Below, piece by piece: positions 1,746 through 52,107 of a DNA stretch of 64,000 bases. Origin of the DNA: a virus (taxonomy: Duplodnaviria > Heunggongvirae > Uroviricota > Caudoviricetes). The notes below the pieces were generated by a model. It searched no databases and was not told where the DNA came from. It saw only the letters and a program-made list of their open reading frames with translations. Where the stretch lies: the IMG/VR virus record IMGVR_UViG_2925846512_000001; one strand, given 5' to 3'. A program made the position numbers and the translations under genes. How positions within the stretch are numbered: the first letter of the stretch is position 1; every line of letters begins with the position of its first letter.

Positions 1746-2777
1746 CTAATCGCCATCTTCCAGCAGGCGCACCATTGCCCCTGTTTCACTATCCAGGTTA
1801 CGGATATAGTTCATGACAATATTTACGTTGGTCCAGCCACCAGCTTGCATGATCTCCGGTATTGAAACTCCGGCGCGGGCCATATCTCGCGCGGCTCCGA
1901 CACGGGCACTGTGTCCAGACCAGGCCAGGTACCTCTGACCAGAGTCATCCTTAGCCCCGTAAATCAATCGGTGAGTTGCTTCAAAAATCCCTTCCAGGGC
2001 GCGAGTTGATAGCTGGCTGGTGGATGATGGCGAGGCAACACCATTTTTTCTGACCCGGCAAAACAAGTAGTTATTCGGATCATCAGCCACACCAGAGACG
2101 GAAATCCATCGCTCGACCAGTTTAGTTACCCCCAGGCTAAGTGCCTTCTCTACACCTGCGGTGCTAACCAGCGTTTTCGTTCTGCCAATATGGATTAACA
2201 TTCTCCCACCGTCAGTACGTGAGATATCTTTAACCCTGATCCTGGCAATTTCGGCTATACGTAACAGGGTGTTATAAGCAATCCCCAGAAATGCCAGATT
2301 CCGTATATCCTGGCAGCGATCGCTATTTCCCATGAGTGAACGAACCTGGTCGAAATCAGTGCGTTCGAACGCCAGCGCCTGTTTTGCACGCTCACCGGCA
2401 TCAACGTTTTCTTTTCGGATCCGTCGCATGACCAGTGAAACAGCATTGCTGTCACTTGGTCGTGGCAGCCCGGACCGACGATGAAGCATATTTAGCTGGC
2501 CCAAATGTTGCTGGATAGTTTTCACTGCCAGACCGCGCGCCTGAAGATATAGAAGATAATCGCGAACATCTTCAGGTTCTGCGGGAAACCATTTCCGGTT
2601 ATTCAACTTGCACCATGCCGCCCATGACCGGCAAACGGACAGAAGCATTTTCCAGGTATGCTCAGAAAACGCCTGGCGATCCCTGAACATGTCCATCAGG
2701 TTCTTGCGAACCTCATCACTCGTTGCATCGACCGGTAATGCAGGCAAATTTTGGTGTACGGTCAGTAAATTGGACAT
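1746..2777 (-). CDS. cre: Cre site-specific tyrosine recombinase
   Basis: 343-aa translation (MSNLLTVHQNLPALPVDATSDEVRKNLMDMFRDRQAFSEHTWKML...RLLEDGD) is essentially P1 Cre. It differs from my memory of the reference at only a few positions (e.g. LMGNSDRC, ASPSSTSQ). Confidence 0.97.
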   Translation of the reverse strand: MSNLLTVHQNLPALPVDATSDEVRKNLMDMFRDRQAFSEHTWKMLLSVCRSWAAWCKLNNRKWFPAEPEDVRDYLLYLQARGLAVKTIQQHLGQLNMLHRRSGLPRPSDSNAVSLVMRRIRKENVDAGERAKQALAFERTDFDQVRSLMGNSDRCQDIRNLAFLGIAYNTLLRIAEIARIRVKDISRTDGGRMLIHIGRTKTLVSTAGVEKALSLGVTKLVERWISVSGVADDPNNYLFCRVRKNGVASPSSTSQLSTRALEGIFEATHRLIYGAKDDSGQRYLAWSGHSARVGAARDMARAGVSIPEIMQAGGWTNVNIVMNYIRNLDSETGAMVRLLEDGD

Positions 2778-2784
2778 TTAACAC

Positions 2785-3006
2785 TCAGATAATGGTTTTA
2801 AGTAAAGTGTACAGGATCGGCTCTGCCTTTACCTGTTTATGGTTCTCGTCATAGAAACGCCAGCGACCGCGCGTGCGTTCTATTTTCTCTTCACCGCGCG
2901 ATAATGACAGTTGACAACTATCACGATCAAACCCTTTTGCCCGCCAGTAACCACGGTTTTTCTCAAGCTCAATATGAGTGGACACTTTAGCAGCTGAATA
3001 TCCCAT
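2785..3006 (-). CDS. small hypothetical ORF between loxP and cre
   Basis: 73-aa ORF ending 7 nt before the cre start. No homology recognised; may be spurious. Confidence 0.2.
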   Translation of the reverse strand: MGYSAAKVSTHIELEKNRGYWRAKGFDRDSCQLSLSRGEEKIERTRGRWRFYDENHKQVKAEPILYTLLKTII

Positions 3007-3100
3007 TTTTCACCTCTGATTGATTGGTGGTGCTAAGTGCGCTACGCGAAATCTGGAGCACTAACACTGCCAACATTTCGCAGATTTTACGTAGCGCAAC

Positions 3101-3180
3101 CTTGATCAAATGATCAAGTGATCACTATTTGACCTGATAAGGTATTGAACTGTATGGATTTACAGGTAAATTGATCATGT
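3101..3180 (-). promoter_or_regulatory. cre upstream region with four GATC (Dam) sites
   Basis: GATC at 3104, 3112, 3120 and 3173. P1 cre promoters are known to be Dam-regulated. Confidence 0.4.
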
Positions 3181-3195
3181 TCAATAACCCTTAAG

Positions 3196-3229
3196 ATAAC
3201 TTCGTATAATGTATGCTATACGAAGTTAT
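3196..3229 (-). other. loxP recombination site (34 bp)
   Basis: ATAACTTCGTATA-ATGTATGC-TATACGAAGTTAT. The spacer is the reverse complement of the conventional GCATACAT, consistent with cre on the minus strand. Confidence 0.97.
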
Positions 3230-3273
3230 TAGGTCCGAAGAGGAGTTTACGTCCAGCTGCGCATAAAAATCAA

Positions 3274-3290
3274 GAATTATTAGAGCAATA
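3274..3290 (-). promoter_or_regulatory. C1 operator (Op99 cluster)
   Basis: rc reads TATTGCTCTAATAATTC, 15/17 to consensus. Confidence 0.6.
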
Positions 3291-3349
3291 AATTTTGAGA
3301 GAAAAATCCCACTCCACCAGCCAAAAACTGGATTGTTTTTCATTGTTGT

Positions 3350-3378
3350 TTGACAATTGCTCTAATAAATTATAGTTT
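3350..3378 (+). promoter_or_regulatory. promoter with embedded C1 operator, directed toward coi-c1
   Basis: TTGACA (3350-3355), then the 17-bp operator ATTGCTCTAATAAATTA (3356-3372), then a weak -10 TAGTTT. The operator fills the spacer. Confidence 0.65.
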
Positions 3379-3497
3379 TGCCGCCGTTTCGTAATACGAC
3401 TTTGGATTCACTATTTAATGTGTCTTCAGCGTTGTAGAGCGGCTCAGAAGGAAATGAGCAAACAGGGAAACCTTATACAACGGCATTACAGCTATGC

Positions 3498-3514
3498 ATT
3501 GCTCATCTTACACA
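3498..3514 (+). promoter_or_regulatory. weak C1 operator-like site
   Basis: ATTGCTCATCTTACACA; only the ATTGCTC core is conserved (9/17). Confidence 0.2.
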
Positions 3515-3610
3515 CAGCGCAATGTTGTTAGATTACCCCAGCATGGATCATGGGTGAAACAGTAGGTCAGAGCTTCAGGCTCTGTGTTGTCAATACAGTG
3601 AGGCATAATT

Positions 3611-3820
3611 ATGGCTTTCATTCCACCAACCATCGACGACGTTAGACATTGCTCTAACGCTTTATCTGTAGACCCTGCCGAAACCGACGCTGCCCGCGCC
3701 ATTGCTGAACACTACTCAAAGATATCCAATCAGGAGTACCGCATCACCCAAGACGACCTGGATGATCTCACTGACACAATCGAATATCTCATGGCCACTA
3801 ACCAGCCAGACTCACAATAA
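3611..3820 (+). CDS. coi: Coi, C1 inactivator
   Basis: 69 aa (MAFIPPTIDDVRHCSNALSV...), matching the size and sequence of P1 Coi as I remember it. Lies immediately upstream of c1. Confidence 0.8.
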   Translation: MAFIPPTIDDVRHCSNALSVDPAETDAARAIAEHYSKISNQEYRITQDDLDDLTDTIEYLMATNQPDSQ

Positions 3821-9181: not shown

Positions 9182-9382
9182 TTATCTGCTGCCCGGCATT
9201 CTCTGTTTAAGCACAACCATTTCCTGACGGCATAACACAGCAATAGCTGTCCTGGCACCAATTTGCTTACCAACCAGGTATTGCTTTACCTTGCGGCGAC
9301 TCACGCCATCAAGAAGCATCTTTAACGCTTCACGGGACAACTTGTTGTATTTGCGTGCCATTAATCTACTCCGCAGAACCAT
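9182..9382 (-). CDS. small basic protein (position of P1 pdcA)
   Basis: 66-aa ORF just downstream of doc. Confidence 0.35.
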
Positions 9383-9746
9383 ACAATCTACGTAACGTGT
9401 CGGCGACAGAAGATACAGATATCTCGCCAGTCGCAGCGCCTACGGTAAGGTCTGCCAGTTCAGGTGAATCAAATACCTGCACCCCGTTACGGCGTAGAAA
9501 TAGCAGCGCACTGTTTAGCGCGGTACGCTTATTGGCATCATTGAATATATGCCCTCTCGCTGTAGCCACCAGGTAGGTGGCAGAGACTTCGAAAAGGTCG
9601 GTGATCTCTTCGTAGGCAACTCTGGCCTGAACTCTCCCGATAATGGCCTCTGCCCTACCCGGATCAGACATTCCCGGCAGGCCGCCGTAGCGGCTTATAT
9701 TCGCATCATGAAGCGCAATAAGTTCTTCCGGTGATATATGCCTCAT
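9366..9746 (-). CDS. doc: Doc toxin (Fic-fold kinase), death on curing
   Basis: 126 aa ([40 protein letters not shown]...), P1 Doc. Confidence 0.95.
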
Positions 9747-9967
9747 TATCGGTTAACCAGTTCCTTGTTGGTGGAGTCCAGGGTGTCAAACAGGGATGCA
9801 AATTCAGCATCCAGCGCCGCTTTTTTGTAGGCTTCGAAAGTAGCCTTGCTGACAATTACTGCTGGCTCACGGCCTCTGCGGGTGATTTCAACCTCTTCCC
9901 CGGCTTCAACATTGTTGAGCACTTCAGAAAGGTTGCCACGCGCGGTACGGAAGTTAATGGATTGCAT
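9746..9967 (-). CDS. phd: Phd antitoxin
   Basis: 73 aa from the second Met ([39 protein letters not shown]...). Its stop overlaps the doc start (TAATG). Confidence 0.92.
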
Positions 9968-14736: not shown

Positions 14737-15320
14737 GCCGCGTTTCCTTCTTTCTTATTAACAATTACACCGTCATATATTTCATTAAGGTGCCCTCTCA
14801 ACTCCATGCGCCTTAATGCAGATAACATGTAATCGCATTCAACCTGCTTATTTCCAGTAAATGGCTTATCGTCAGGATTCCCCCAACAGCAATTACCCTT
14901 GGGCCACCCATGTACTTTCCGTACTCTTCCGTTAACAACGTGAAGTAATCCCCAGCCAGGTGGTAAATCCTCAATTGAAATAATTCCCGGCTCACTAATA
15001 AAGAATCGCCAGTCGCCCATTCCAAGAGACGGATTTTTACGAAAACGCTTTTTTCTATCTGCTAACAAGTCAGCACGAGAACACTTCGCTTCTATCAGGC
15101 ATGATGCTGAATTTCTGAATCCCATAGCATCTGGCTGTTCTCCGGTACTGGTTACAGCTATAAAGCGGTCATGAAAACAAACCTTGAACCCGTTGCGCTT
15201 AAGGAACTTATACGCAATCTGACAGAGTTCGCGGTGTGTTAACGCCATATCACTCTCCTTTAGTGCGCAAGAGGTTTTTCCAGCGGTTTTGCGCCGCGCT
15301 GGGCTTTTTGCAAAAACCAC
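14733..15320 (-). CDS. hypothetical protein, possible PD-(D/E)xK-fold
   Basis: 195 aa; the likely true start is the internal Met (MALTHRELCQIAYKF). D...E-A-K arrangement in FHDRF...CLIEAKCSRAD. Weak. Confidence 0.35.
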   Translation of the reverse strand: MVFAKSPARRKTAGKTSCALKESDMALTHRELCQIAYKFLKRNGFKVCFHDRFIAVTSTGEQPDAMGFRNSASCLIEAKCSRADLLADRKKRFRKNPSLGMGDWRFFISEPGIISIEDLPPGWGLLHVVNGRVRKVHGWPKGNCCWGNPDDKPFTGNKQVECDYMLSALRRMELRGHLNEIYDGVIVNKKEGNAA

Positions 15321-15438
15321 AATCCATCATCCCGTAATATTTCATCAACCCCATCCGTCGGTTGCTGAGTCTCACCCACTGCCAGACGCCAGGAGCGTTT
15401 CTACGAACTAACAGAATCTTTGCTTTACGGTTTTTCAT
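15250..15438 (-). CDS. small basic protein, paralog B (MKNRKAKILLVRR...)
   Basis: 62 aa. Its start overlaps the upstream paralog's stop (ATGA). Confidence 0.4.
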   Translation of the reverse strand: MKNRKAKILLVRRNAPGVWQWVRLSNRRMGLMKYYGMMDCGFCKKPSAAQNRWKNLLRTKGE

Positions 15439-15611
15439 CTTACAGCGTACCCTTTCTTCCGCCTGTTCTGTGACGCAGTAGGCTTACGCTTTGCGGCAAA
15501 AGCCACCTGACCAAATGGATGGAGTACCGCTATCTTATGGTTGCTAATAACCAGCTCCACCACACGCACAGGTCGCTGTAAAAAAAGTCGTTTTGCCTTA
15601 CGGTTTTTCAT
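15435..15611 (-). CDS. small basic protein, paralog A (MKNRKAKRLFLQR...)
   Basis: 58-aa ORF found by hand (below the track cutoff). It shares the MKNRKAK start and the 5' nucleotide sequence with the downstream paralog. Confidence 0.35.
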   Translation of the reverse strand: MKNRKAKRLFLQRPVRVVELVISNHKIAVLHPFGQVAFAAKRKPTASQNRRKKGYAVR

Positions 15612-15703
15612 CGCTTTGCTCTCCTGCGTCTCTTTGCTGCTCGTCGTGCCGCTGCAATACCGGTATGGCGGCGCTTTGGTGCCGGGATGATGTTGTCAGC
15701 CAT
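15608..15703 (-). CDS. Arg-rich 31-aa peptide (MADNIIPAPKRRHTGIAAARRAAKRRRRAKR)
   Basis: Found by hand; ATGA overlap with paralog A. Confidence 0.25.
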   Translation of the reverse strand: MADNIIPAPKRRHTGIAAARRAAKRRRRAKR

Positions 15704-15783
15704 CAGGACATACGGCTTTGCAATTAGCGCAGAAGCCCAAAAACGAGTCGGGTACGGTAACAAGCCGATACATGCCACACGCA

Positions 15784-16542
15784 TTACTCACCTCCTTTGA
15801 TGCGAATGCCTGCGGCGCGGATTGCATCGATGACTTCAGAAACTTTGTATGCCATTACCGTTTGGTAATCATCGTGAAAATCTGTTCGATGAAGCATGCT
15901 GCTACGTTCCGGGAGCGATATTTCCCGAGCATCCAGTTCCTTAACGCGTTCCTCCAGTTCGTAGACCCTGCATTGTTCTCTATCATCAATCAGATATAAC
16001 CCAAGACATTCGCTTTCTACCCAACCGCCAAAATCATGATCGTAACGCTCACATGAAAACTCACCGTCACCGTCCTTTGTTGGAATGGTGTAACTATCTA
16101 ATGGGCCACCATATGTCGGCACATTTCCCAATGTTGGATGCTCAATCCACATGAAAAATGCACGTCCGGTTATTGGGCAAATATCTGGCCGCCATTGGTT
16201 ACGAACAGCCTTGGTTTCGGATAATTCTTCAGCGTGTTGTTTTACTTCCTCAAGCTCAACTCTCAGCTTCCCTACCGTTAGCGCAATATCCTCGTTCTCC
16301 TGGTCGCGGCATTTTATGTATTGCTGGTTTCTTTCCCGTTCATCCAGTAGTGCCAGCACGGTTTCTGGTCCGGTCAGAAATTTGAAGGCGTTGAGCGCAT
16401 CAATATCCACACCGTAATCCTTAAGTTCCTGTTCAGTTAACAAATCATCATCAACTGGCAACATTAACAGGTGTTCCATTGCCGGAATTGCACGCTCTGC
16501 CGCCTCACGCAGTGCCTGATAGTCAATTGTCATTCTCGCCAT
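15784..16542 (-). CDS. hypothetical protein with coiled-coil segment
   Basis: 252 aa. Confidence 0.45.
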   Translation of the reverse strand: MARMTIDYQALREAAERAIPAMEHLLMLPVDDDLLTEQELKDYGVDIDALNAFKFLTGPETVLALLDERERNQQYIKCRDQENEDIALTVGKLRVELEEVKQHAEELSETKAVRNQWRPDICPITGRAFFMWIEHPTLGNVPTYGGPLDSYTIPTKDGDGEFSCERYDHDFGGWVESECLGLYLIDDREQCRVYELEERVKELDAREISLPERSSMLHRTDFHDDYQTVMAYKVSEVIDAIRAAGIRIKGGE

Positions 16543-17174
16543 CCTTCACAGTTGTAATCACTACAGCCTTCAAAATCATATGGGCTGTACTGCCAGGTTA
16601 TTTTTCCGCAATGCGGACAATTCCAACGCACCTTCCCGCTTCGCGACTTCTTTCTTCTGTTCTGCTCTTTCAACCAGTCAGGCATGACCAAACCTGCGCC
16701 CTGAACCATTGTTCTGCGGTTAAAGTTATTGATATTGAACGTCCGACGCTTTGCTGCATCAGCAATGGAAAATGGCAACCAAACTATTCCTGGTTCGTTT
16801 TTGTTGGCGACGCTAAAGATGGTCGCTTTACTGAAGTCATCTGTTGGCAATCCACCGTGTTGAAGCCAGTAAACATCGTTGCCGTTCCAGCTACCTTTTT
16901 TGTAGGCCACATACGCAGTGCAATCTGACTCAATCAGGCTTTCTGTGGGGATGTACTGGCAATCAACGTGCCACACAGCCATTGCATCCACGCTATCAGC
17001 GCAAACAGGCTGATCGATATCTCGTCCACAATTCCAGGCTTTTTGGGCTTCTTCCAGCGTGTAAACATGAGCGCGATCGATATCAGAACTGTAACCATTG
17101 CCGTTATGGCAATGGAATGAGGCGTTATTACCCACAGTTTCACGCAAGCACATCATGTAAAAGCGGTTATTCAC
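16530..17174 (-). CDS. hypothetical Cys-rich protein
   Basis: 214 aa ending CPHCGKITWQYSPYDFEGCSDYNCEGW. Confidence 0.45.
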   Translation of the reverse strand: MNNRFYMMCLRETVGNNASFHCHNGNGYSSDIDRAHVYTLEEAQKAWNCGRDIDQPVCADSVDAMAVWHVDCQYIPTESLIESDCTAYVAYKKGSWNGNDVYWLQHGGLPTDDFSKATIFSVANKNEPGIVWLPFSIADAAKRRTFNINNFNRRTMVQGAGLVMPDWLKEQNRRKKSRSGKVRWNCPHCGKITWQYSPYDFEGCSDYNCEGWRE

Positions 17175-17451
17175 TGGTTGCCTCCGCTTCCCACGTTTTC
17201 AGACTTTCACCACAGAACGGGCAAAATGAAACTCGAATAGGCGATTTAGAAAATTCACCAGACCGCAGCATGATCAGGTCTTGTGAATGAATTAATTCAT
17301 GGTTATAGATTTTGTATTTCAGCAGACCTTTTCGCGTCGTGTATTCAGCGTCATGCTCCAGGGATTGTGCCAACGCCGCGCACGGTTCTATCTTGTTGCC
17401 ATTAATTTGGCATTTTGACTCACTCACTGGTTGCCCCCTGAATACGCTCAA
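17167..17451 (-). CDS. small protein with C-terminal zinc ribbon (CPFCG)
   Basis: 94 aa. Confidence 0.4.
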   Translation of the reverse strand: MSVFRGQPVSESKCQINGNKIEPCAALAQSLEHDAEYTTRKGLLKYKIYNHELIHSQDLIMLRSGEFSKSPIRVSFCPFCGESLKTWEAEATSE

Positions 17452-18001
17452 ACTCTATTACCCACACCCAAGGATTAGCGTTCCAACTATCTTCGCCATA
17501 AATTGATTTCCATAGGCTACGGAAACCTGGGTAATGCTTATCGCCAATGAGGGTCGATTCTGTTGGTGCGCCCTCAGCCCTTGCATCGCATTCGCTGATA
17601 TCGTTCAACCGCTCAACGCGCACGTTGGTAATTTCCAGAAGAATGCGCGATGCCCAGCGCGGCATGTGAATTGATGGCGTCCACTTTTCTGATACTGGTT
17701 TATTACAAACCTCGACCGGAACCCGGTGCGTTTGTTCTGTCCAGGAGTTACGCACGCTTGCGCGATAAACCAGCGTTGCGACGTCCGTCGCTTTGCCATG
17801 TACCCGGTAGGTTTCGCGAACCCAAATACGATCGCCCGGTTGACCATATGGACAATGCTTGGCAAGCAACTCTGCGGCCACTGCCCGTCCATAGAATTTT
17901 TCTTCAACAATCCTGCGAGTCTGTGTTTTATTCCCGCCAAGAATTGCCCGGACCATCTCATCGTTAAAAATCATGCCGCGCTCTTTCACTTCGCCTTTCA
18001 T
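17420..18001 (-). CDS. ASCH-like domain protein
   Basis: 193 aa. N-terminus MIFNDEMVRAILGGNKTQTRR (GxK...R), typical of the phage ASCH/DUF3850 family. Confidence 0.45.
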   Translation of the reverse strand: MKGEVKERGMIFNDEMVRAILGGNKTQTRRIVEEKFYGRAVAAELLAKHCPYGQPGDRIWVRETYRVHGKATDVATLVYRASVRNSWTEQTHRVPVEVCNKPVSEKWTPSIHMPRWASRILLEITNVRVERLNDISECDARAEGAPTESTLIGDKHYPGFRSLWKSIYGEDSWNANPWVWVIEFERIQGATSE

Positions 18002-49163: not shown

Positions 49164-49181
49164 GAGTCATCCCTTGTATTT

Positions 49182-49207
49182 TAAAGCTCCTTCGGGAGCT
49201 TTTTTAT
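49182..49207. terminator. palindromic terminator hairpin
   Basis: AAAGCTCC-TTCG-GGAGCTTTTTTATT. Serves the tail operon and also lies at the 3' end of the hok locus. Confidence 0.6.
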
Positions 49208-49267
49208 TTGGAGATGAAAGGGTGCATTGAGGATACCTGACACACTAAGAGTGGCGGGGATCTCTCC

Positions 49268-50606
49268 CATAAGCGCTAACTTAAGGGTTGTGGTATTACG
49301 CCTGATATGATTTAACGTGCCGATGAATTACTCTCACGATAACTGGTCAGCAATTCTGGCCCATATTGGTAAGCCCGAAGAACTGGATACTTCGGCACGT
49401 AATGCCGGGGCTCTAACCCGCCGCCGCGAAATTCGTGATGCTGCAACTCTGCTACGTCTGGGGCTGGCTTACGGCCCCGGGGGGATGTCATTACGTGAAG
49501 TCACTGCATGGGCTCAGCTCCATGACGTTGCAACATTATCTGACGTGGCTCTCCTGAAGCGGCTGCGGAATGCCGCCGACTGGTTTGGCATACTTGCCGC
49601 ACAAACACTTGCTGTACGCGCCGCAGTTACGGGTTGTACAAGCGGAAAGAGATTGCGTCTTGTCGATGGAACAGCAATCAGTGCGCCCGGGAGCGGCAGC
49701 GCTGAATGGCGACTACATATGGGATATGATCCTCATACCTGTCAGTTCACTGATTTTGAGCTAACCGACAGCAGAGACGCTGAACGGCTGGACCGATTTG
49801 CGCAAACGGCAGACGAGATACGCATTGCTGACCGGGGATTCGGTTCGCGTCCCGAATGTATCCGCTCACTTGCTTTTGGAGAAGCTGATTATATCGTCCG
49901 GGTTCACTGGCGAGGATTGCGCTGGTTAACTGCAGAAGGAATGCGCTTTGACATGATGGGTTTTCTGCGCGGGCTGGATTGCGGTAAGAACGGTGAAACC
50001 ACTGTAATGATAGGCAATTCAGGTAATAAAAAAGCCGGAGCTCCCTTTCCGGCACGTCTCATTGCCGTATCACTTCCTCCCGAAAAAGCATTAATCAGTA
50101 AAACCCGACTGCTCAGCGAGAATCGTCGAAAAGGACGAGTAGTTCAGGCGGAAACGCTGGAAGCAGCGGGCCATGTGCTATTGCTAACATCATTACCGGA
50201 AGATGAATATTCAGCAGAGCAAGTGGCTGATTGTTACCGTCTGCGATGGCAAATTGAACTGGCTTTTAAGCGGCTCAAAAGTTTGCTGCACCTGGATGCT
50301 TTGCGTGCAAAGGAACCTGAACTCGCGAAAGCGTGGATATTTGCTAATCTACTCGCCGCATTTTTAATTGACGACATAATCCAGCCATCGCTGGATTTCC
50401 CCCCCAGAAGTGCCGGATCCGAAAAGAAGAACTAACTCGTTGTGGAGAATAACAAAAATGGTCATCTGGAGCTTACAGGTGGCCATTCGTGGGACAGTAT
50501 CCCTGACAGCCTACAAAACGCAATTGAAGAACGCGAGGCATCGTCTTAACGAGGCACCGAGGCGTCGCATTCTTCAGATGGTTCAACCCTTAAGTTAGCG
50601 CTTATG
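49268..50606 (+). mobile_element. IS186 (IS4 family), complete, with 10-bp target site duplication
   Basis: 23-bp terminal inverted repeats CATAAGCGCTAACTTAAGGGTTG / CAACCCTTAAGTTAGCGCTTATG. Flanked by direct repeat GGATCTCTCC at 49258-49267 and 50607-50616. Target reads GGGG-N6-CCCC. Confidence 0.9.
49317..50435 (+). CDS. IS186 DDE transposase
   Basis: 372 aa (GTG start; MPMNYSHDNWSAILAHIGKPEEL...), IS186/IS421 transposase sequence. Confidence 0.9.
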   Translation: MPMNYSHDNWSAILAHIGKPEELDTSARNAGALTRRREIRDAATLLRLGLAYGPGGMSLREVTAWAQLHDVATLSDVALLKRLRNAADWFGILAAQTLAVRAAVTGCTSGKRLRLVDGTAISAPGSGSAEWRLHMGYDPHTCQFTDFELTDSRDAERLDRFAQTADEIRIADRGFGSRPECIRSLAFGEADYIVRVHWRGLRWLTAEGMRFDMMGFLRGLDCGKNGETTVMIGNSGNKKAGAPFPARLIAVSLPPEKALISKTRLLSENRRKGRVVQAETLEAAGHVLLLTSLPEDEYSAEQVADCYRLRWQIELAFKRLKSLLHLDALRAKEPELAKAWIFANLLAAFLIDDIIQPSLDFPPRSAGSEKKN

Positions 50607-50628
50607 GGATCTCTCCCCACCAGGTCTC

Positions 50629-50784
50629 TTACCTTTCAGATTCGTAGGCTGTGAAGACAGTGACCTCCGTCTGGCCGGTTCGGATTCGTACCTCGCAGAG
50701 GTCTTTCCTCGTTACCAGTGCCGTCACAATGACGGTTAAACAGATGACGATCAGAGCGATTAACATCGCTTTTTGCTGCTTCAT
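50629..50784 (-). CDS. Hok-family type I toxin (RelF/HokD- and HokC-like), 51 aa
   Basis: Found by hand: MKQQKAMLIALIVICLTVIVTALVTRKDLCEVRIRTGQTEVTVFTAYESER. RBS AAGGAGAAG. Confidence 0.85.
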   Translation of the reverse strand: MKQQKAMLIALIVICLTVIVTALVTRKDLCEVRIRTGQTEVTVFTAYESER

Positions 50785-50842
50785 AGCCTGCTTCTCCTTG
50801 ACCTTTTGGTCGGTAAGAGGCTAATCTACGTATGCTAAGCAT
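50636..50842 (-). CDS. Mok-like overlapping reading frame (translational coupler for hok)
   Basis: 68-aa track ORF in the +1 frame, completely overlapping hok as mok does in hok/sok loci. Confidence 0.6.
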   Translation of the reverse strand: MLSIRRLASYRPKGQGEAGYEAAKSDVNRSDRHLFNRHCDGTGNEERPLRGTNPNRPDGGHCLHSLRI

Positions 50843-50965
50843 AGATATGGCCTCAGATTAATGTTAAGCGTCTTGCAGGACGCGTAATGTTATCTGGGGC
50901 TTTCTTCTATCTGCTTTTCGGGTAATGCCTGAAGCAGATAGCCTCAAGCACCCGCAACGATTGTA

Positions 50966-51211
50966 TCAATGTCTGGCTTTTTTTCTATAGAAATCACCTG
51001 GAAGGGTGAATATCCACATCAGAAGAAATGTTGCAGCAAACATGATCCCTAATGGCCAGACCGCGCCAAAGAAAATCCATACTAAGATCTCCTCTGCTTG
51101 TTCTTTGCGGTCGATATCGACAAGCATTTTTCGGCTGAACATGTATACACAGAAGCCAATACAAACATATCCTGCAAAAGCGATCGCTAACTGTAAAAAA
51201 TCAGATTGCAT
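50966..51211 (-). CDS. small membrane protein downstream of repL (rlfA position)
   Basis: 81 aa from the internal Met (MQSDFLQLAIAFAGYVCIGF...) with GAGG RBS. Two TM segments. Confidence 0.45.
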   Translation of the reverse strand: MQSDFLQLAIAFAGYVCIGFCVYMFSRKMLVDIDRKEQAEEILVWIFFGAVWPLGIMFAATFLLMWIFTLPGDFYRKKARH

Positions 51212-51241
51212 CTCCGACCTCAAACTGAAAACGCCAGGTGA

Positions 51242-51258
51242 CTCCAGATTAGAGCAAT
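51242..51258 (-). promoter_or_regulatory. C1 operator-like site within the 3' end of repL
   Basis: rc reads ATTGCTCTAATCTGGAG, 12/17. Confidence 0.3.
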
Positions 51259-51261
51259 CTA

Positions 51262-52107
51262 TCACCCTCTGAATCCTGCCGGTATACCCCATTGTTCGTT
51301 ATCTTTATTTTTGGCTAAAACCGCATTAAGAGCTTCGTTTACCGTCATGCAATGCGGCAGATTATCGAAGTTTGATACCCCGCCAATATCAGGAGAACGC
51401 TTGTTCTTCAGGTAAGCATATTTCCGCGCTGCCGCCTCTACCTTCTGCTTGAACTCATGTTTTTGAGCGCGTTTTTTGGATAACCGCAGATTGTCAGCCT
51501 TTGCTTTTGCCTCAGCGATCCATGAAGTCAATTTTTTGAGTCTGGTCGTTCCGGCACCGCCGGAAACTGATCTTTTTGTTTTTTTAACTTGTGACTTCTT
51601 ATTCTTTATTGCCACGTCATCCTGACAGGGGGAGGGGGTATCATTTTGACATGGGGGTGTGGATAAAAAATTAAATAAAGCCAATGTCTTAGCGAGAACA
51701 GCTTTAACCTTGGTTGCCGCTGAAGAGATCTTTAATTTGCTTTCAATCAGCGCATTTTTGGCTTGTTGTGCGAAGGCCAAAAAGGATGGTGTAAACCGGT
51801 ACAGGTTAGCGCGACGTTCACGGTGATCGCCGATAACAATCTCTACAGACAGAATTCCTTTGTTTACAGCTTCACGGAATGCACGAACGACGGTTGATTG
51901 GCTATAACCAGTTTCTGCCGCGATCAGGCGGTGAGGCTTGTGAATGAAGTATTCACTGGTTGTTGCCGCGAGATTTGCACATTGCGACAGGATATGCCCG
52001 GCGCTACGGGATAGACCGGAGTGTGTTACAAAGCAGGCCAATTCATAGCCAGAAAAAGTAAAATCGCTCATCGTTATACAGCTCAGGAAAGTGACTTTAG
52101 CCAGCAT
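51262..52107 (-). CDS. repL: RepL lytic replication initiator
   Basis: 281 aa containing MSDFTFSGYELACFVTHSGLSRSAGH...; second gene of the operator-controlled operon. Confidence 0.85.
   Translation of the reverse strand: MLAKVTFLSCITMSDFTFSGYELACFVTHSGLSRSAGHILSQCANLAATTSEYFIHKPHRLIAAETGYSQSTVVRAFREAVNKGILSVEIVIGDHRERRANLYRFTPSFLAFAQQAKNALIESKLKISSAATKVKAVLAKTLALFNFLSTPPCQNDTPSPCQDDVAIKNKKSQVKKTKRSVSGGAGTTRLKKLTSWIAEAKAKADNLRLSKKRAQKHEFKQKVEAAARKYAYLKNKRSPDIGGVSNFDNLPHCMTVNEALNAVLAKNKDNEQWGIPAGFRG

What the first reader, a model, noticed from the sequence alone, without database searches (positions are those of the whole stretch)
49164..50965. Complete hok/mok/sok-type type I toxin-antitoxin locus inside a P1-like genome that already carries phd/doc
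A 51-aa Hok toxin (MKQQKAMLIALIVICLTVIVTALVTRKDLCEVRIRTGQTEVTVFTAYESER) is closest, from memory, to RelF/HokD and HokC. It has a fully overlapping Mok frame and a leader carrying the tac/ucb-like elements (GGGTGCTTGAGGCT...AGCCTCTTACCGACC...CAAGGAGAAGCAGGCTATG). A Sok-like antisense RNA is expected on the plus strand around 50834-50890. The locus sits between the tail-structure genes and the repL/rlf genes. In my recollection P1 has pmgF/rlfB there and no hok locus. It would be a second, independent addiction or abortive-infection module on the prophage-plasmid.
Basis: partly seen in the sequence, partly recalled or inferred. Interest (0 to 1): 0.6.

Follow-up and report, generated by a model that had tools for sequence, protein, structure and literature searches.

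The report
IS186-split hok/sok toxin–antitoxin locus
A real hok/mok/sok toxin–antitoxin cassette sits between bplB and repL of this P1-like plasmid-prophage, but three quarters of the flagged interval is an IS186 insertion that cuts off the locus's 3' control element, and both the cassette and the insertion are common and already described.

Summary
The Hok peptide, the overlapping mok frame, the structured leader and the Sok position are all confirmed: Pfam HOK_GEF E=2.4e-22, and Rfam sok 114.9 bits against a cut-off of 59. The locus is not "complete". Window 49268-50606 is an intact IS186, one mismatch from K-12 IS186A. It carries a 10-bp target duplication, GGATCTCTCC, and lies in the GGGG-N6-CCCC hairpin 22 nt after the hok stop codon. 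The insertion moves the fold-back inhibitory element (fbi, 49220-49232) and the terminator 1.35 kb away from hok. K-12 hokC/gef and hokE carry IS186 at the same point. Among P1-like plasmids in PLSDB, however, the hok cassette is the commoner state: 216 intact, 161 with IS186 as here, 34 with IS186 reversed, against 99 of the reference type. It is annotated hokD or MokW, and Venturini 2019 reported the same IS186 with the same repeat. The window is 100% identical over the 2.8 kb compared to Salmonella plasmid p16-6773.2. The most likely state is a hok locus that is transcribed and held in check by Sok but no longer able to kill plasmid-free cells. Ordinary and already known; low interest.

The parts
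49183..49202 (.). Hairpin AAAGCTCCTTCGGGAGCTTT. It is the terminator of bplB on the + strand and the last hairpin of the uninterrupted hok mRNA on the - strand. It is still inside the sequence shared with reference P1, where homology ends at 49205.
   Evidence: Terminator scan; fold of the reconstructed mRNA; P1 breakpoints
49220..49232 (-). fbi (fold-back inhibitory) element, CCUCAAUGCACCC in mRNA sense. It is complementary to tac and now lies 1.35 kb from the rest of the hok mRNA.
   Evidence: In the 427-nt mRNA reconstructed from the empty site, nt 373-385 pair with nt 1-12 in both the MFE and the centroid fold, z = -8.2. The homologous element sits beyond IS186A at K-12 hokC.
49258..49267 (.). 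Left copy of the 10-bp target-site duplication, GGATCTCTCC.
   Evidence: Comparison with the empty site in MH422554. The same repeat is reported for pSvP1 in PMC6906374.
49268..50606 (+). IS186 (IS186/IS421, IS4 family), 1339 bp, with terminal inverted repeats CATAAGCGCTAACTTAAGGGTTG. The ends are ambiguous by 1-2 nt because the terminal bases match the target.
   Evidence: 1 mismatch in 1337 nt against K-12 IS186A. The window holds 1349 bp more than the empty site, which equals the IS plus a 10-bp duplication.
49317..50435 (+). Intact IS186 transposase (InsL) ORF, 372 aa from a GTG start. PGAP starts it at 49323.
   Evidence: ORF list; Pfam DDE_Tnp_1 E=6e-27; annotated as an IS421 family transposase in identical plasmids
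50607..50616 (.). Right copy of the target-site duplication, GGATCTCTCC.
50607..50628 (-). Remnant of the hok 3' UTR. The 5' arm and loop of the hairpin GGUGGGGAGAGAUCCCCGCC remain. The stem is cut from 9 predicted pairs to 4.
50629..50784 (-). hok toxin gene, 51 aa, HokD/RelF type. The ORF is intact.
50636..50842 (-). mok reading frame, 68 aa, overlapping hok in another frame. A GAGG Shine-Dalgarno motif lies 8 nt upstream of the ATG.
   Evidence: PHROG 37205 E=8e-21; the Shine-Dalgarno motif pairs with the upstream complementary box (ucb) in the closed fold
50798..50827 (+). Probable Sok promoter, TTGACC-18 nt-TAATCT. Its -35 hexamer overlaps the hok Shine-Dalgarno region.
   Evidence: Read from the sequence. 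Its position fits a 5' end at 50834 mapped from sokC. The consensus scan did not pick it up.
50834..50908 (+). Predicted Sok antisense RNA: a single-stranded 5' tail over the mok start, a long hairpin, and a U-rich tail.
   Evidence: Homology to the annotated K-12 sokC; fold -30.4 kcal/mol, z = -4.6
50779..50953 (-). hok mRNA leader. It holds tac (50942-50953, GGGUGCUUGAGG), ucb, the mok Shine-Dalgarno motif and the Sok target.
   Evidence: Rfam RF01794 114.9 bits, E=9e-27, full-length match
50960..50987 (-). hok promoter, TAGAAA-16 nt-(TG)TACAAT. It places the transcription start near 50953.
   Evidence: Promoter scan, 9 of 12 matches plus an extended -10 TG. The start coincides with the first base of the Rfam match.
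50966..51292 (-). Neighbouring small ORF: 81 aa from 51208, or 108 aa from 51292. Function unknown. It belongs to the same variable cassette but not to the toxin-antitoxin unit.
   Evidence: PHROG 3772 E=2.6e-53 over residues 28-108. Homology with reference P1 resumes only at 51248.

Best explanation
This is a HokD/HokW-type hok/mok/sok type I toxin-antitoxin cassette. In many P1-like (IncY) phage-plasmids it occupies the variable slot between bplB and repL, in place of P1's pmgF-rlfB-rlfA. In this copy an IS186 element has transposed into its preferred GGGG-N6-CCCC target. That target is the stem-loop lying 22 nt after the hok stop codon.

How the intact cassette works (shown in silico here, mechanism taken from R1 hok/sok). 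The roughly 427-nt hok mRNA is closed by pairing of its 5' tac element with the 3' fbi element. The closed form is inert and long-lived. Slow 3' trimming back to the stem-loop opens the mRNA. It is then either destroyed through Sok and RNase III, or, in cells that have lost the plasmid and therefore Sok, translated through mok into the membrane toxin.

What changes in this copy (inferred). The fbi element and terminator are 1.35 kb away and the protective stem-loop is halved. The transcript runs into IS186. K-12 gef has IS186 in the same orientation, and its mRNA is described as about 644 nt long and ending inside the IS. No stable closed pool can build up. The mRNA should be open to Sok from the outset and should be kept down while the plasmid is present. 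The most likely outcome is that toxin, mok, Sok and both promoters survive as sequence, but the locus no longer carries out post-segregational killing. This is the state described for K-12 hokC and hokE.

Shown: the parts, the insertion, the displaced fbi element, the recurrence and the distribution. Inferred: the loss of function.
For: Identity of the locus.

The insertion. The empty site GGCGGGGATCTCTCCCCACC is present at 100% flank identity in MH422554. The IS is 99.9% identical to K-12 IS186A. The target matches the preferred site 5'-GGGG(N6/N7)CCCC given in PMC6925257. The 64-kb window holds only one other such site.

Same insertion point in paralogous loci. The K-12 junctions read hokC GGGGAGUGAUCCC|AUAAGCG and hokE GGGGAGUAAUCCC|AUAAGCG. 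The window reads GGGGAGAGAUCCC|AUAAGCG.

Role of fbi. In the reconstructed 427-nt mRNA, nt 1-12 pair with nt 373-385 in both MFE and centroid folds, at z = -8.2. Without the 3' end, tac folds locally or onto ucb. The tac/fbi closure and its release by 3' processing are described for R1 in PMC9841398. That paper also found that substitutions weakening the last 3' stem-loop of the truncated mRNA abolish toxicity.

Literature on IS-bearing loci. hokA, hokC and hokE are 'suggested to be inactivated' by insertion elements (PMC12214031). [quoted passage not shown]

Distribution.
Against: No expression or killing data exist for this copy. The hok ORF, mok, Sok and both promoters are untouched. They remain intact in 161 + 34 plasmids that carry the IS, which could mean some function is retained. 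MFE folds of the IS-interrupted transcript changed with the 3' end I chose, so they do not establish which conformation dominates. K-12 gef with IS186 is reported to be still transcribed and regulated. Even intact chromosomal hok loci failed to mediate post-segregational killing in earlier tests (bioRxiv 10.1101/2025.08.07.668861). The intact P1-type cassette may therefore never have been an addiction module at all.
Confidence: 0.8

Rival explanations
1. The locus is still a working second addiction or abortive-infection module despite IS186. The mRNA would end inside the IS, and some other structure would take over the role of fbi. Alternatively, Hok would be released whenever transcription is shut off, for example by an infecting phage.
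For: All coding and 5' regulatory parts are intact. The hok ORF is identical in the IS-bearing and IS-free alleles examined. [quoted passage not shown]
Against: The fbi element is 1.35 kb away and the 3' stem-loop is halved. R1 mutagenesis shows that this stem-loop is needed for toxicity. The equivalent K-12 loci are regarded as inactivated. No substitute pairing partner for tac appeared consistently in the folds.
Confidence: 0.2
2. The IS186 insertion itself deleted rlfA, rlfB and pmgF and brought in the toxin gene. This is the reading given for pSvP1 in Venturini et al. 2019.
For: [quoted passage not shown]
Against: 216 PLSDB plasmids and several phage records have the hok cassette in place of pmgF-rlfB-rlfA with no IS at all. 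The IS is flanked by a perfect 10-bp duplication of a site that is contiguous in those records. This is the signature of a simple insertion. The IS also occurs in both orientations at the same site.
Confidence: 0.02
3. The match is a chance ORF or a decayed hok pseudogene with no toxin-antitoxin organisation.
For: None beyond the short length of the ORF.
Against: Pfam E=2.4e-22 and Rfam at 114.9 bits over the whole model. 48 of 51 residues are identical to K-12 HokD. There is 89-92% nucleotide identity over 360 nt to hok loci of lambdoid phages.
Confidence: 0.01

Closest known systems
E. coli K-12 hokC (gef)/mokC/sokC with IS186A
   Same: The leader, the Sok position and the peptide family are the same; Hok is about 80% identical. 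IS186 is inserted in the same GGGG-N6-CCCC hairpin about 20 nt after the stop codon and in the same orientation. The fbi element is left on the far side of the IS.
   Different: hokC is chromosomal, between dnaJ and nhaA. Its mok is annotated in frame with hokC, whereas here mok is in a different frame, as in R1. The Sok hairpin here carries an extra 18 nt.
E. coli K-12 hokE/sokE with IS186B
   Same: IS186 lies in the equivalent hairpin, GGGGAGUAAUCCC|IS, 18 nt after the stop codon.
   Different: The IS is in the opposite orientation, as in the 34 PLSDB P1-like plasmids. The Hok peptide is much more divergent.
hok/sok (parB) of plasmid R1
   Same: The architecture matches: a weak hok promoter, tac/ucb/mok Shine-Dalgarno/dcb (downstream complementary box) leader logic, an overlapping mok, antisense Sok across the mok start, and, in the empty-site allele, tac-fbi end pairing.
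   Different: R1's locus is uninterrupted and is experimentally shown to mediate post-segregational killing. This copy has lost the contiguous fbi element.
HokD (RelF) of the Qin prophage, and hok loci of lambdoid phages (annotated HokD, HokW or MokW)
   Same: These are the closest peptides: 48 of 51 residues match K-12 HokD. The 360-nt hok/sok unit is 89-92% identical at nucleotide level to Rac-like and other lambdoid phages.
   Different: K-12 hokD sits directly downstream of relBE. It is said to lack canonical toxin-antitoxin components through rearrangement. Here the full 5' leader and Sok are present.
P1-like plasmids and phages with the same cassette: MH422554 'Punavirus P1', pSvP1 and pTZ20_1P (Venturini 2019), Salmonella p16-6773.2
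   Same: The bplB-hok-orf81-repL arrangement is the same. pSvP1 and p16-6773.2 have the same IS186 with the same 10-bp repeat.
   Different: None for p16-6773.2, which is 100% identical over the 2.8 kb compared. MH422554 is the IS-free allele.

Membership tests
[quoted passage not shown] | Hok/Gef toxin peptide of about 50 aa with an N-terminal transmembrane segment | tested here: met
   PF01848 E=2.4e-22 over residues 6-47. 48 of 51 residues identical to K-12 HokD.
[quoted passage not shown] | Overlapping mok reading frame with its own Shine-Dalgarno motif upstream of hok | tested here: met
   68-aa ORF at 50636-50842 (-), with GAGG 8 nt before the ATG. Translational coupling itself cannot be tested here.
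[quoted passage not shown] | Structured hok mRNA leader (tac, ucb, Sok target) | tested here: met
   Rfam RF01794 114.9 bits against a gathering score of 59, model positions 1-157 of 157.
[quoted passage not shown] | cis-encoded antisense Sok RNA across the mok translation-initiation region | tested here: inconclusive
   The position maps from the annotated sokC to 50834 to about 50910. The hairpin folds at z = -4.6. A TTGACC-18-TAATCT promoter is visible in the sequence but fell below the scan's threshold. There are no expression data.
[quoted passage not shown] | 3' fbi element contiguous with the mRNA and pairing with the 5' tac element | tested here: not met
   fbi (49220-49232) is separated from hok by the 1339-bp IS186. 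The feature is met in the empty-site allele.
[quoted passage not shown] | Post-segregational killing or toxicity on loss of Sok | not testable with these tools
   Needs plasmid-stability and rifampicin-killing assays.
IS186 (IS4 family insertion sequence) | Element of about 1.34 kb with 23-bp terminal inverted repeats and one DDE transposase gene | tested here: met
   1 mismatch in 1337 nt against K-12 IS186A. Inverted repeats CATAAGCGCTAACTTAAGGGTTG at both ends. DDE_Tnp_1 E=6e-27.
IS186 (IS4 family insertion sequence) | Target-site duplication at a GGGG(N6/N7)CCCC target | tested here: met
   The empty site is GGGGATCTCTCCCC and the duplication is the 10-bp GGATCTCTCC. The consensus is quoted in PMC6925257.
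Reference P1 lytic-replication-associated region (pmgF-rlfB-rlfA) | pmgF, rlfB and rlfA present between bplB and repL | tested here: not met
   Homology to AF234172 stops at window 49205 and resumes at 51248.

The most novel reading that the evidence does not exclude
IS186 insertion into the hok 3' hairpin may be more than a neutral accident. It could be a recurrent, possibly selected, off-switch for hok in P1-like phage-plasmids. It has occurred at least twice independently, once in each orientation. About 47% of hok-bearing P1-like plasmids in PLSDB carry it (195 of 411). A junction of the same kind is present in 820 of 5426 complete E. coli genomes. If selection favours silencing hok while keeping the ORF, or if the IS-bearing allele has a changed role such as phage exclusion on transcription shut-off, that would say something new about how mobile elements tame their own toxins.
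Probability: 0.15. Interest if true: 0.35.

Novelty: already known. Interest (0 to 1): 0.15.

Why it matters
It matters little beyond correct annotation. This P1-like plasmid carries phd/doc plus a hok/sok cassette whose 3' control element has been cut off by IS186. It should therefore not be counted as having two working addiction systems without a test. The one wider point is that the conserved GGGG-N6-CCCC hairpin of hok mRNAs is a natural IS186 target. Hok loci on chromosomes, prophages and phage-plasmids are therefore hit at the same nucleotide again and again. The published reading that IS186 deleted rlfA, rlfB and pmgF in such plasmids is not supported by the IS-free alleles.

Tried and rejected
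1. The sigma-70 consensus scan did not report a Sok promoter on the + strand. I placed it by eye (TTGACC-18-TAATCT) and by homology to sokC, so it is an inference.
2. Other Rfam hits in the region were all below their gathering scores and were treated as chance: CRISPR-DR46 on the bplB terminator, ceN48, sbrA, and a 21-bit reverse-strand sok hit.
3. MFE folds of IS-interrupted transcripts of 380-800 nt gave different partners for tac depending on the arbitrary 3' end. One was a weak pairing inside IS186 at 644 nt. I do not use these folds to decide the active or inactive state.
4. My first attempt at a reversed-junction query was mis-built. It was rebuilt and searched.
5. The original IS186 target-consensus paper (PMC95536) is not held. 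The consensus is cited second-hand from PMC6925257. Pedersen and Gerdes 1999 could not be read either, so its conclusions are cited through PMC12214031, PMC3562002 and the 2025 bioRxiv survey.
6. The large protein-database, structure-prediction and metagenome tools were not used. Nothing about this locus needed them.
7. The reading that IS186 caused the replacement of rlfA, rlfB and pmgF was considered and rejected.

Full report
**What is in the interval.**
A 68-aa ORF overlaps it in another frame at 50636-50842. The peptide matches Pfam HOK_GEF (PF01848) at E=2.4e-22 and PHROG 251 'MokW-like host killing' at E=4.9e-32. The sequence upstream, 50779-50953 (-), begins GGGUGCUUGAGGCU. It matches the whole Rfam sok model (RF01794) at 114.9 bits, against a gathering score of 59.

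A promoter-like site, TAGAAA-16-(TG)TACAAT, ends at 50960. This places the transcription start at the first base of the Rfam match. Mapping the annotated K-12 sokC through an alignment places Sok at 50834 to about 50910 on the plus strand. That stretch folds into a long hairpin with a U-rich tail (-30.4 kcal/mol, z = -4.6). It is preceded by TTGACC-18-TAATCT, which I read from the sequence because the scan's threshold missed it. phd/doc is present at 9369-9967.

Positions 49268-50606, three quarters of the flagged interval, are an insertion sequence. It carries an intact DDE transposase gene (49317-50435, +) and inverted repeats CATAAGCGCTAACTTAAGGGTTG at both ends. It differs from K-12 IS186A at 1 of 1337 positions.

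A phage record deposited as 'Punavirus P1' (MH422554) is 100% identical on both flanks and lacks the element. Its sequence there reads GGCGGGGATCTCTCCCCACC. The window has 1349 extra bases, which equals a 1339-bp IS plus a 10-bp duplication, GGATCTCTCC. The target fits the preferred IS186 site 5'-GGGG(N6/N7)CCCC (PMC6925257). The 64-kb window contains only one other such site, at 31405.

**Where the insertion sits in the toxin-antitoxin unit.**
I rebuilt the uninterrupted mRNA from the empty-site record. It is 427 nt, running from the start site to the hairpin that also terminates bplB. Nucleotides 1-12 (tac, GGGUGCUUGAGG) pair with nucleotides 373-385 (CCUCAAUGCACCC) in both the minimum-energy and the centroid structures, at z = -8.2 against shuffles. 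The mok Shine-Dalgarno motif is paired with an upstream box.

This is the tac/fbi end-pairing that keeps full-length R1 hok mRNA inert until its 3' end is trimmed (PMC9841398). The IS186 target is the stem-loop GGUGGGGAGAGAUCCCCGCC at nt 332-352, between the hok stop codon (nt 325) and fbi. In the window, fbi (49220-49232) and the terminator (49183-49202) are therefore 1.35 kb from hok, and the stem-loop keeps only 4 of its 9 predicted pairs. PMC9841398 also reports that substitutions weakening the last stem-loop of the truncated R1 mRNA abolish toxicity. The locus is not 'complete'.

**The same lesion elsewhere.**
In E. coli K-12, IS186A lies about 20 nt after the hokC stop codon and IS186B lies 18 nt after the hokE stop codon. 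In mRNA sense, the junctions are:
- hokC: GGGGAGUGAUCCC|AUAAGCG
- hokE: GGGGAGUAAUCCC|AUAAGCG
- this window: GGGGAGAGAUCCC|AUAAGCG

This is the same nucleotide of the same hairpin, and the hokC fbi element lies on the far side of the IS. The literature treats hokA, hokC and hokE as inactivated by insertion elements (PMC12214031). It describes gef/hokC with IS186 as having a disrupted fbi, although the gene is still transcribed as an mRNA of about 644 nt that ends inside the IS and is regulated by its antisense RNA (PMC3562002). The window has the hokC orientation.

**Distribution.**
Homology with the window stops at 49205 and resumes at 51248. That arrangement is the minority among P1-like plasmids in PLSDB:

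| Arrangement between bplB and repL | PLSDB records |
|---|---|
| Uninterrupted bplB-hok-orf81-repL | 216 |
| hok cassette with IS186 as in the window | 161 |
| hok cassette with IS186 at the same site, reversed | 34 |
| Reference P1 type (pmgF-rlfB-rlfA) | 99 |

I checked one reversed case, CP099239. It has the same duplication and an identical Hok. The insertion has therefore happened at least twice in this lineage.

The window's arrangement is in 150 of 5426 complete E. coli genomes. A hok-IS186 junction of this orientation is in 820 of them, including chromosomal prophage hok and hokC. Sampling is clonal, so these counts are not event counts.

Over the 2.8 kb compared, the window is 100% identical to plasmid p16-6773.2 (IncY, 91.9 kb) of Salmonella 1,4,[5],12:i:- and to four other Salmonella plasmids. 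PGAP names the gene hokD and GenBank phage records call it MokW. The 360-nt hok/sok unit is 89-92% identical to hok loci of Rac-like and other lambdoid phages, which suggests where the cassette came from.

**Prior description.**
Venturini et al. [quoted passage not shown] They attributed the deletion to the IS. The IS-free alleles and the perfect duplication show that the substitution came first and that the IS is a later simple insertion. A 2025 survey found hok enriched in prophages and large plasmids. I found no paper that spells out the loss of fbi in P1-like plasmids, but it follows directly from the K-12 precedent.

**Most likely working.**
Shown here:
- all the parts of the locus;
- the insertion and its target;
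- the displaced fbi element;
- the closed fold of the intact allele.

Inferred from R1 and K-12:
- the IS-bearing allele is transcribed into IS186;
- it cannot form the closed long-lived mRNA pool;
- it is exposed to Sok and RNase III from the outset;
- it has lost post-segregational killing while keeping an intact toxin ORF.

I put about 0.65 on that functional inference and near certainty on the structural description. The main rival, at about 0.2, is that the locus still works, for example in phage exclusion. Even intact chromosomal hok loci failed killing assays in earlier work, so the role of the IS-free cassette in P1-like elements is itself untested.

**Verdict.**
This is a correctly spotted hok/sok locus that is wrongly called complete. 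It is not new: it is annotated in hundreds of records, it is present in genomes named P1, and it has been described in print. Interest is low.

Noticed in passing
window 50966-51292 (-): A small ORF lies between the hok promoter and repL: 81 aa from 51208, or 108 aa if started at 51292, where it would overlap the repL stop. It matches PHROG 3772 (unknown function, E=2.6e-53) and has two hydrophobic stretches. It travels with hok in the cassette that replaces pmgF-rlfB-rlfA.
   Followed up: partly
window 50641-50646 (-), Hok codon 47: Tyr47 is encoded by UAC followed by G (UACGAA). This is the TadA A-to-I editing motif, and HokC, HokD and HokE are reported to be recoded Tyr to Cys at the equivalent position (PMC12214031). 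The editing site is conserved in this copy.
   Followed up: partly
window 50865-50882 (Sok hairpin / hok leader): The second leader hairpin carries 18 extra nucleotides (ACGCGUCCUGCAAGACGC in mRNA sense) relative to K-12 hokC/sokC and the Rfam consensus. This lengthens the predicted Sok from about 59 to about 75 nt.
   Followed up: no
window 31405-31419: This is the only other GGGG(N6/7)CCCC site in the 64 kb (GGGGCAAGGTTCCCC), and so a second potential IS186 target. It is unoccupied here.
   Followed up: no
window 49183-49202: The bplB terminator hairpin is shared. Read on the minus strand, it is also the terminal hairpin of the uninterrupted hok mRNA. The breakpoint with reference P1 (49205/49206) lies immediately next to it, only 14 nt from fbi.
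   Followed up: partly
L006 (CP099239.1) 2350-3740, and 33 other PLSDB plasmids: IS186 is inserted at the identical hok hairpin with the same duplication but in the opposite orientation. This is an independent insertion event in the same phage-plasmid family.
   Followed up: yes
PMC6906374 (pSvP1) compared with window 49206-51247: The published interpretation that IS186B caused the deletion of rlfA, rlfB and pmgF is contradicted by 216 plasmids that have the substitution without any IS.
   Followed up: yes
L003 (K-12 15000-17600) compared with window 50636-50842: K-12 mokC is annotated in frame with hokC, as an N-terminal extension. The window's mok is in a different frame, as in R1. A 1-nt difference in the leader (TAGATTAGCC against TAGAGT-GCC) accounts for this.
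   Followed up: no
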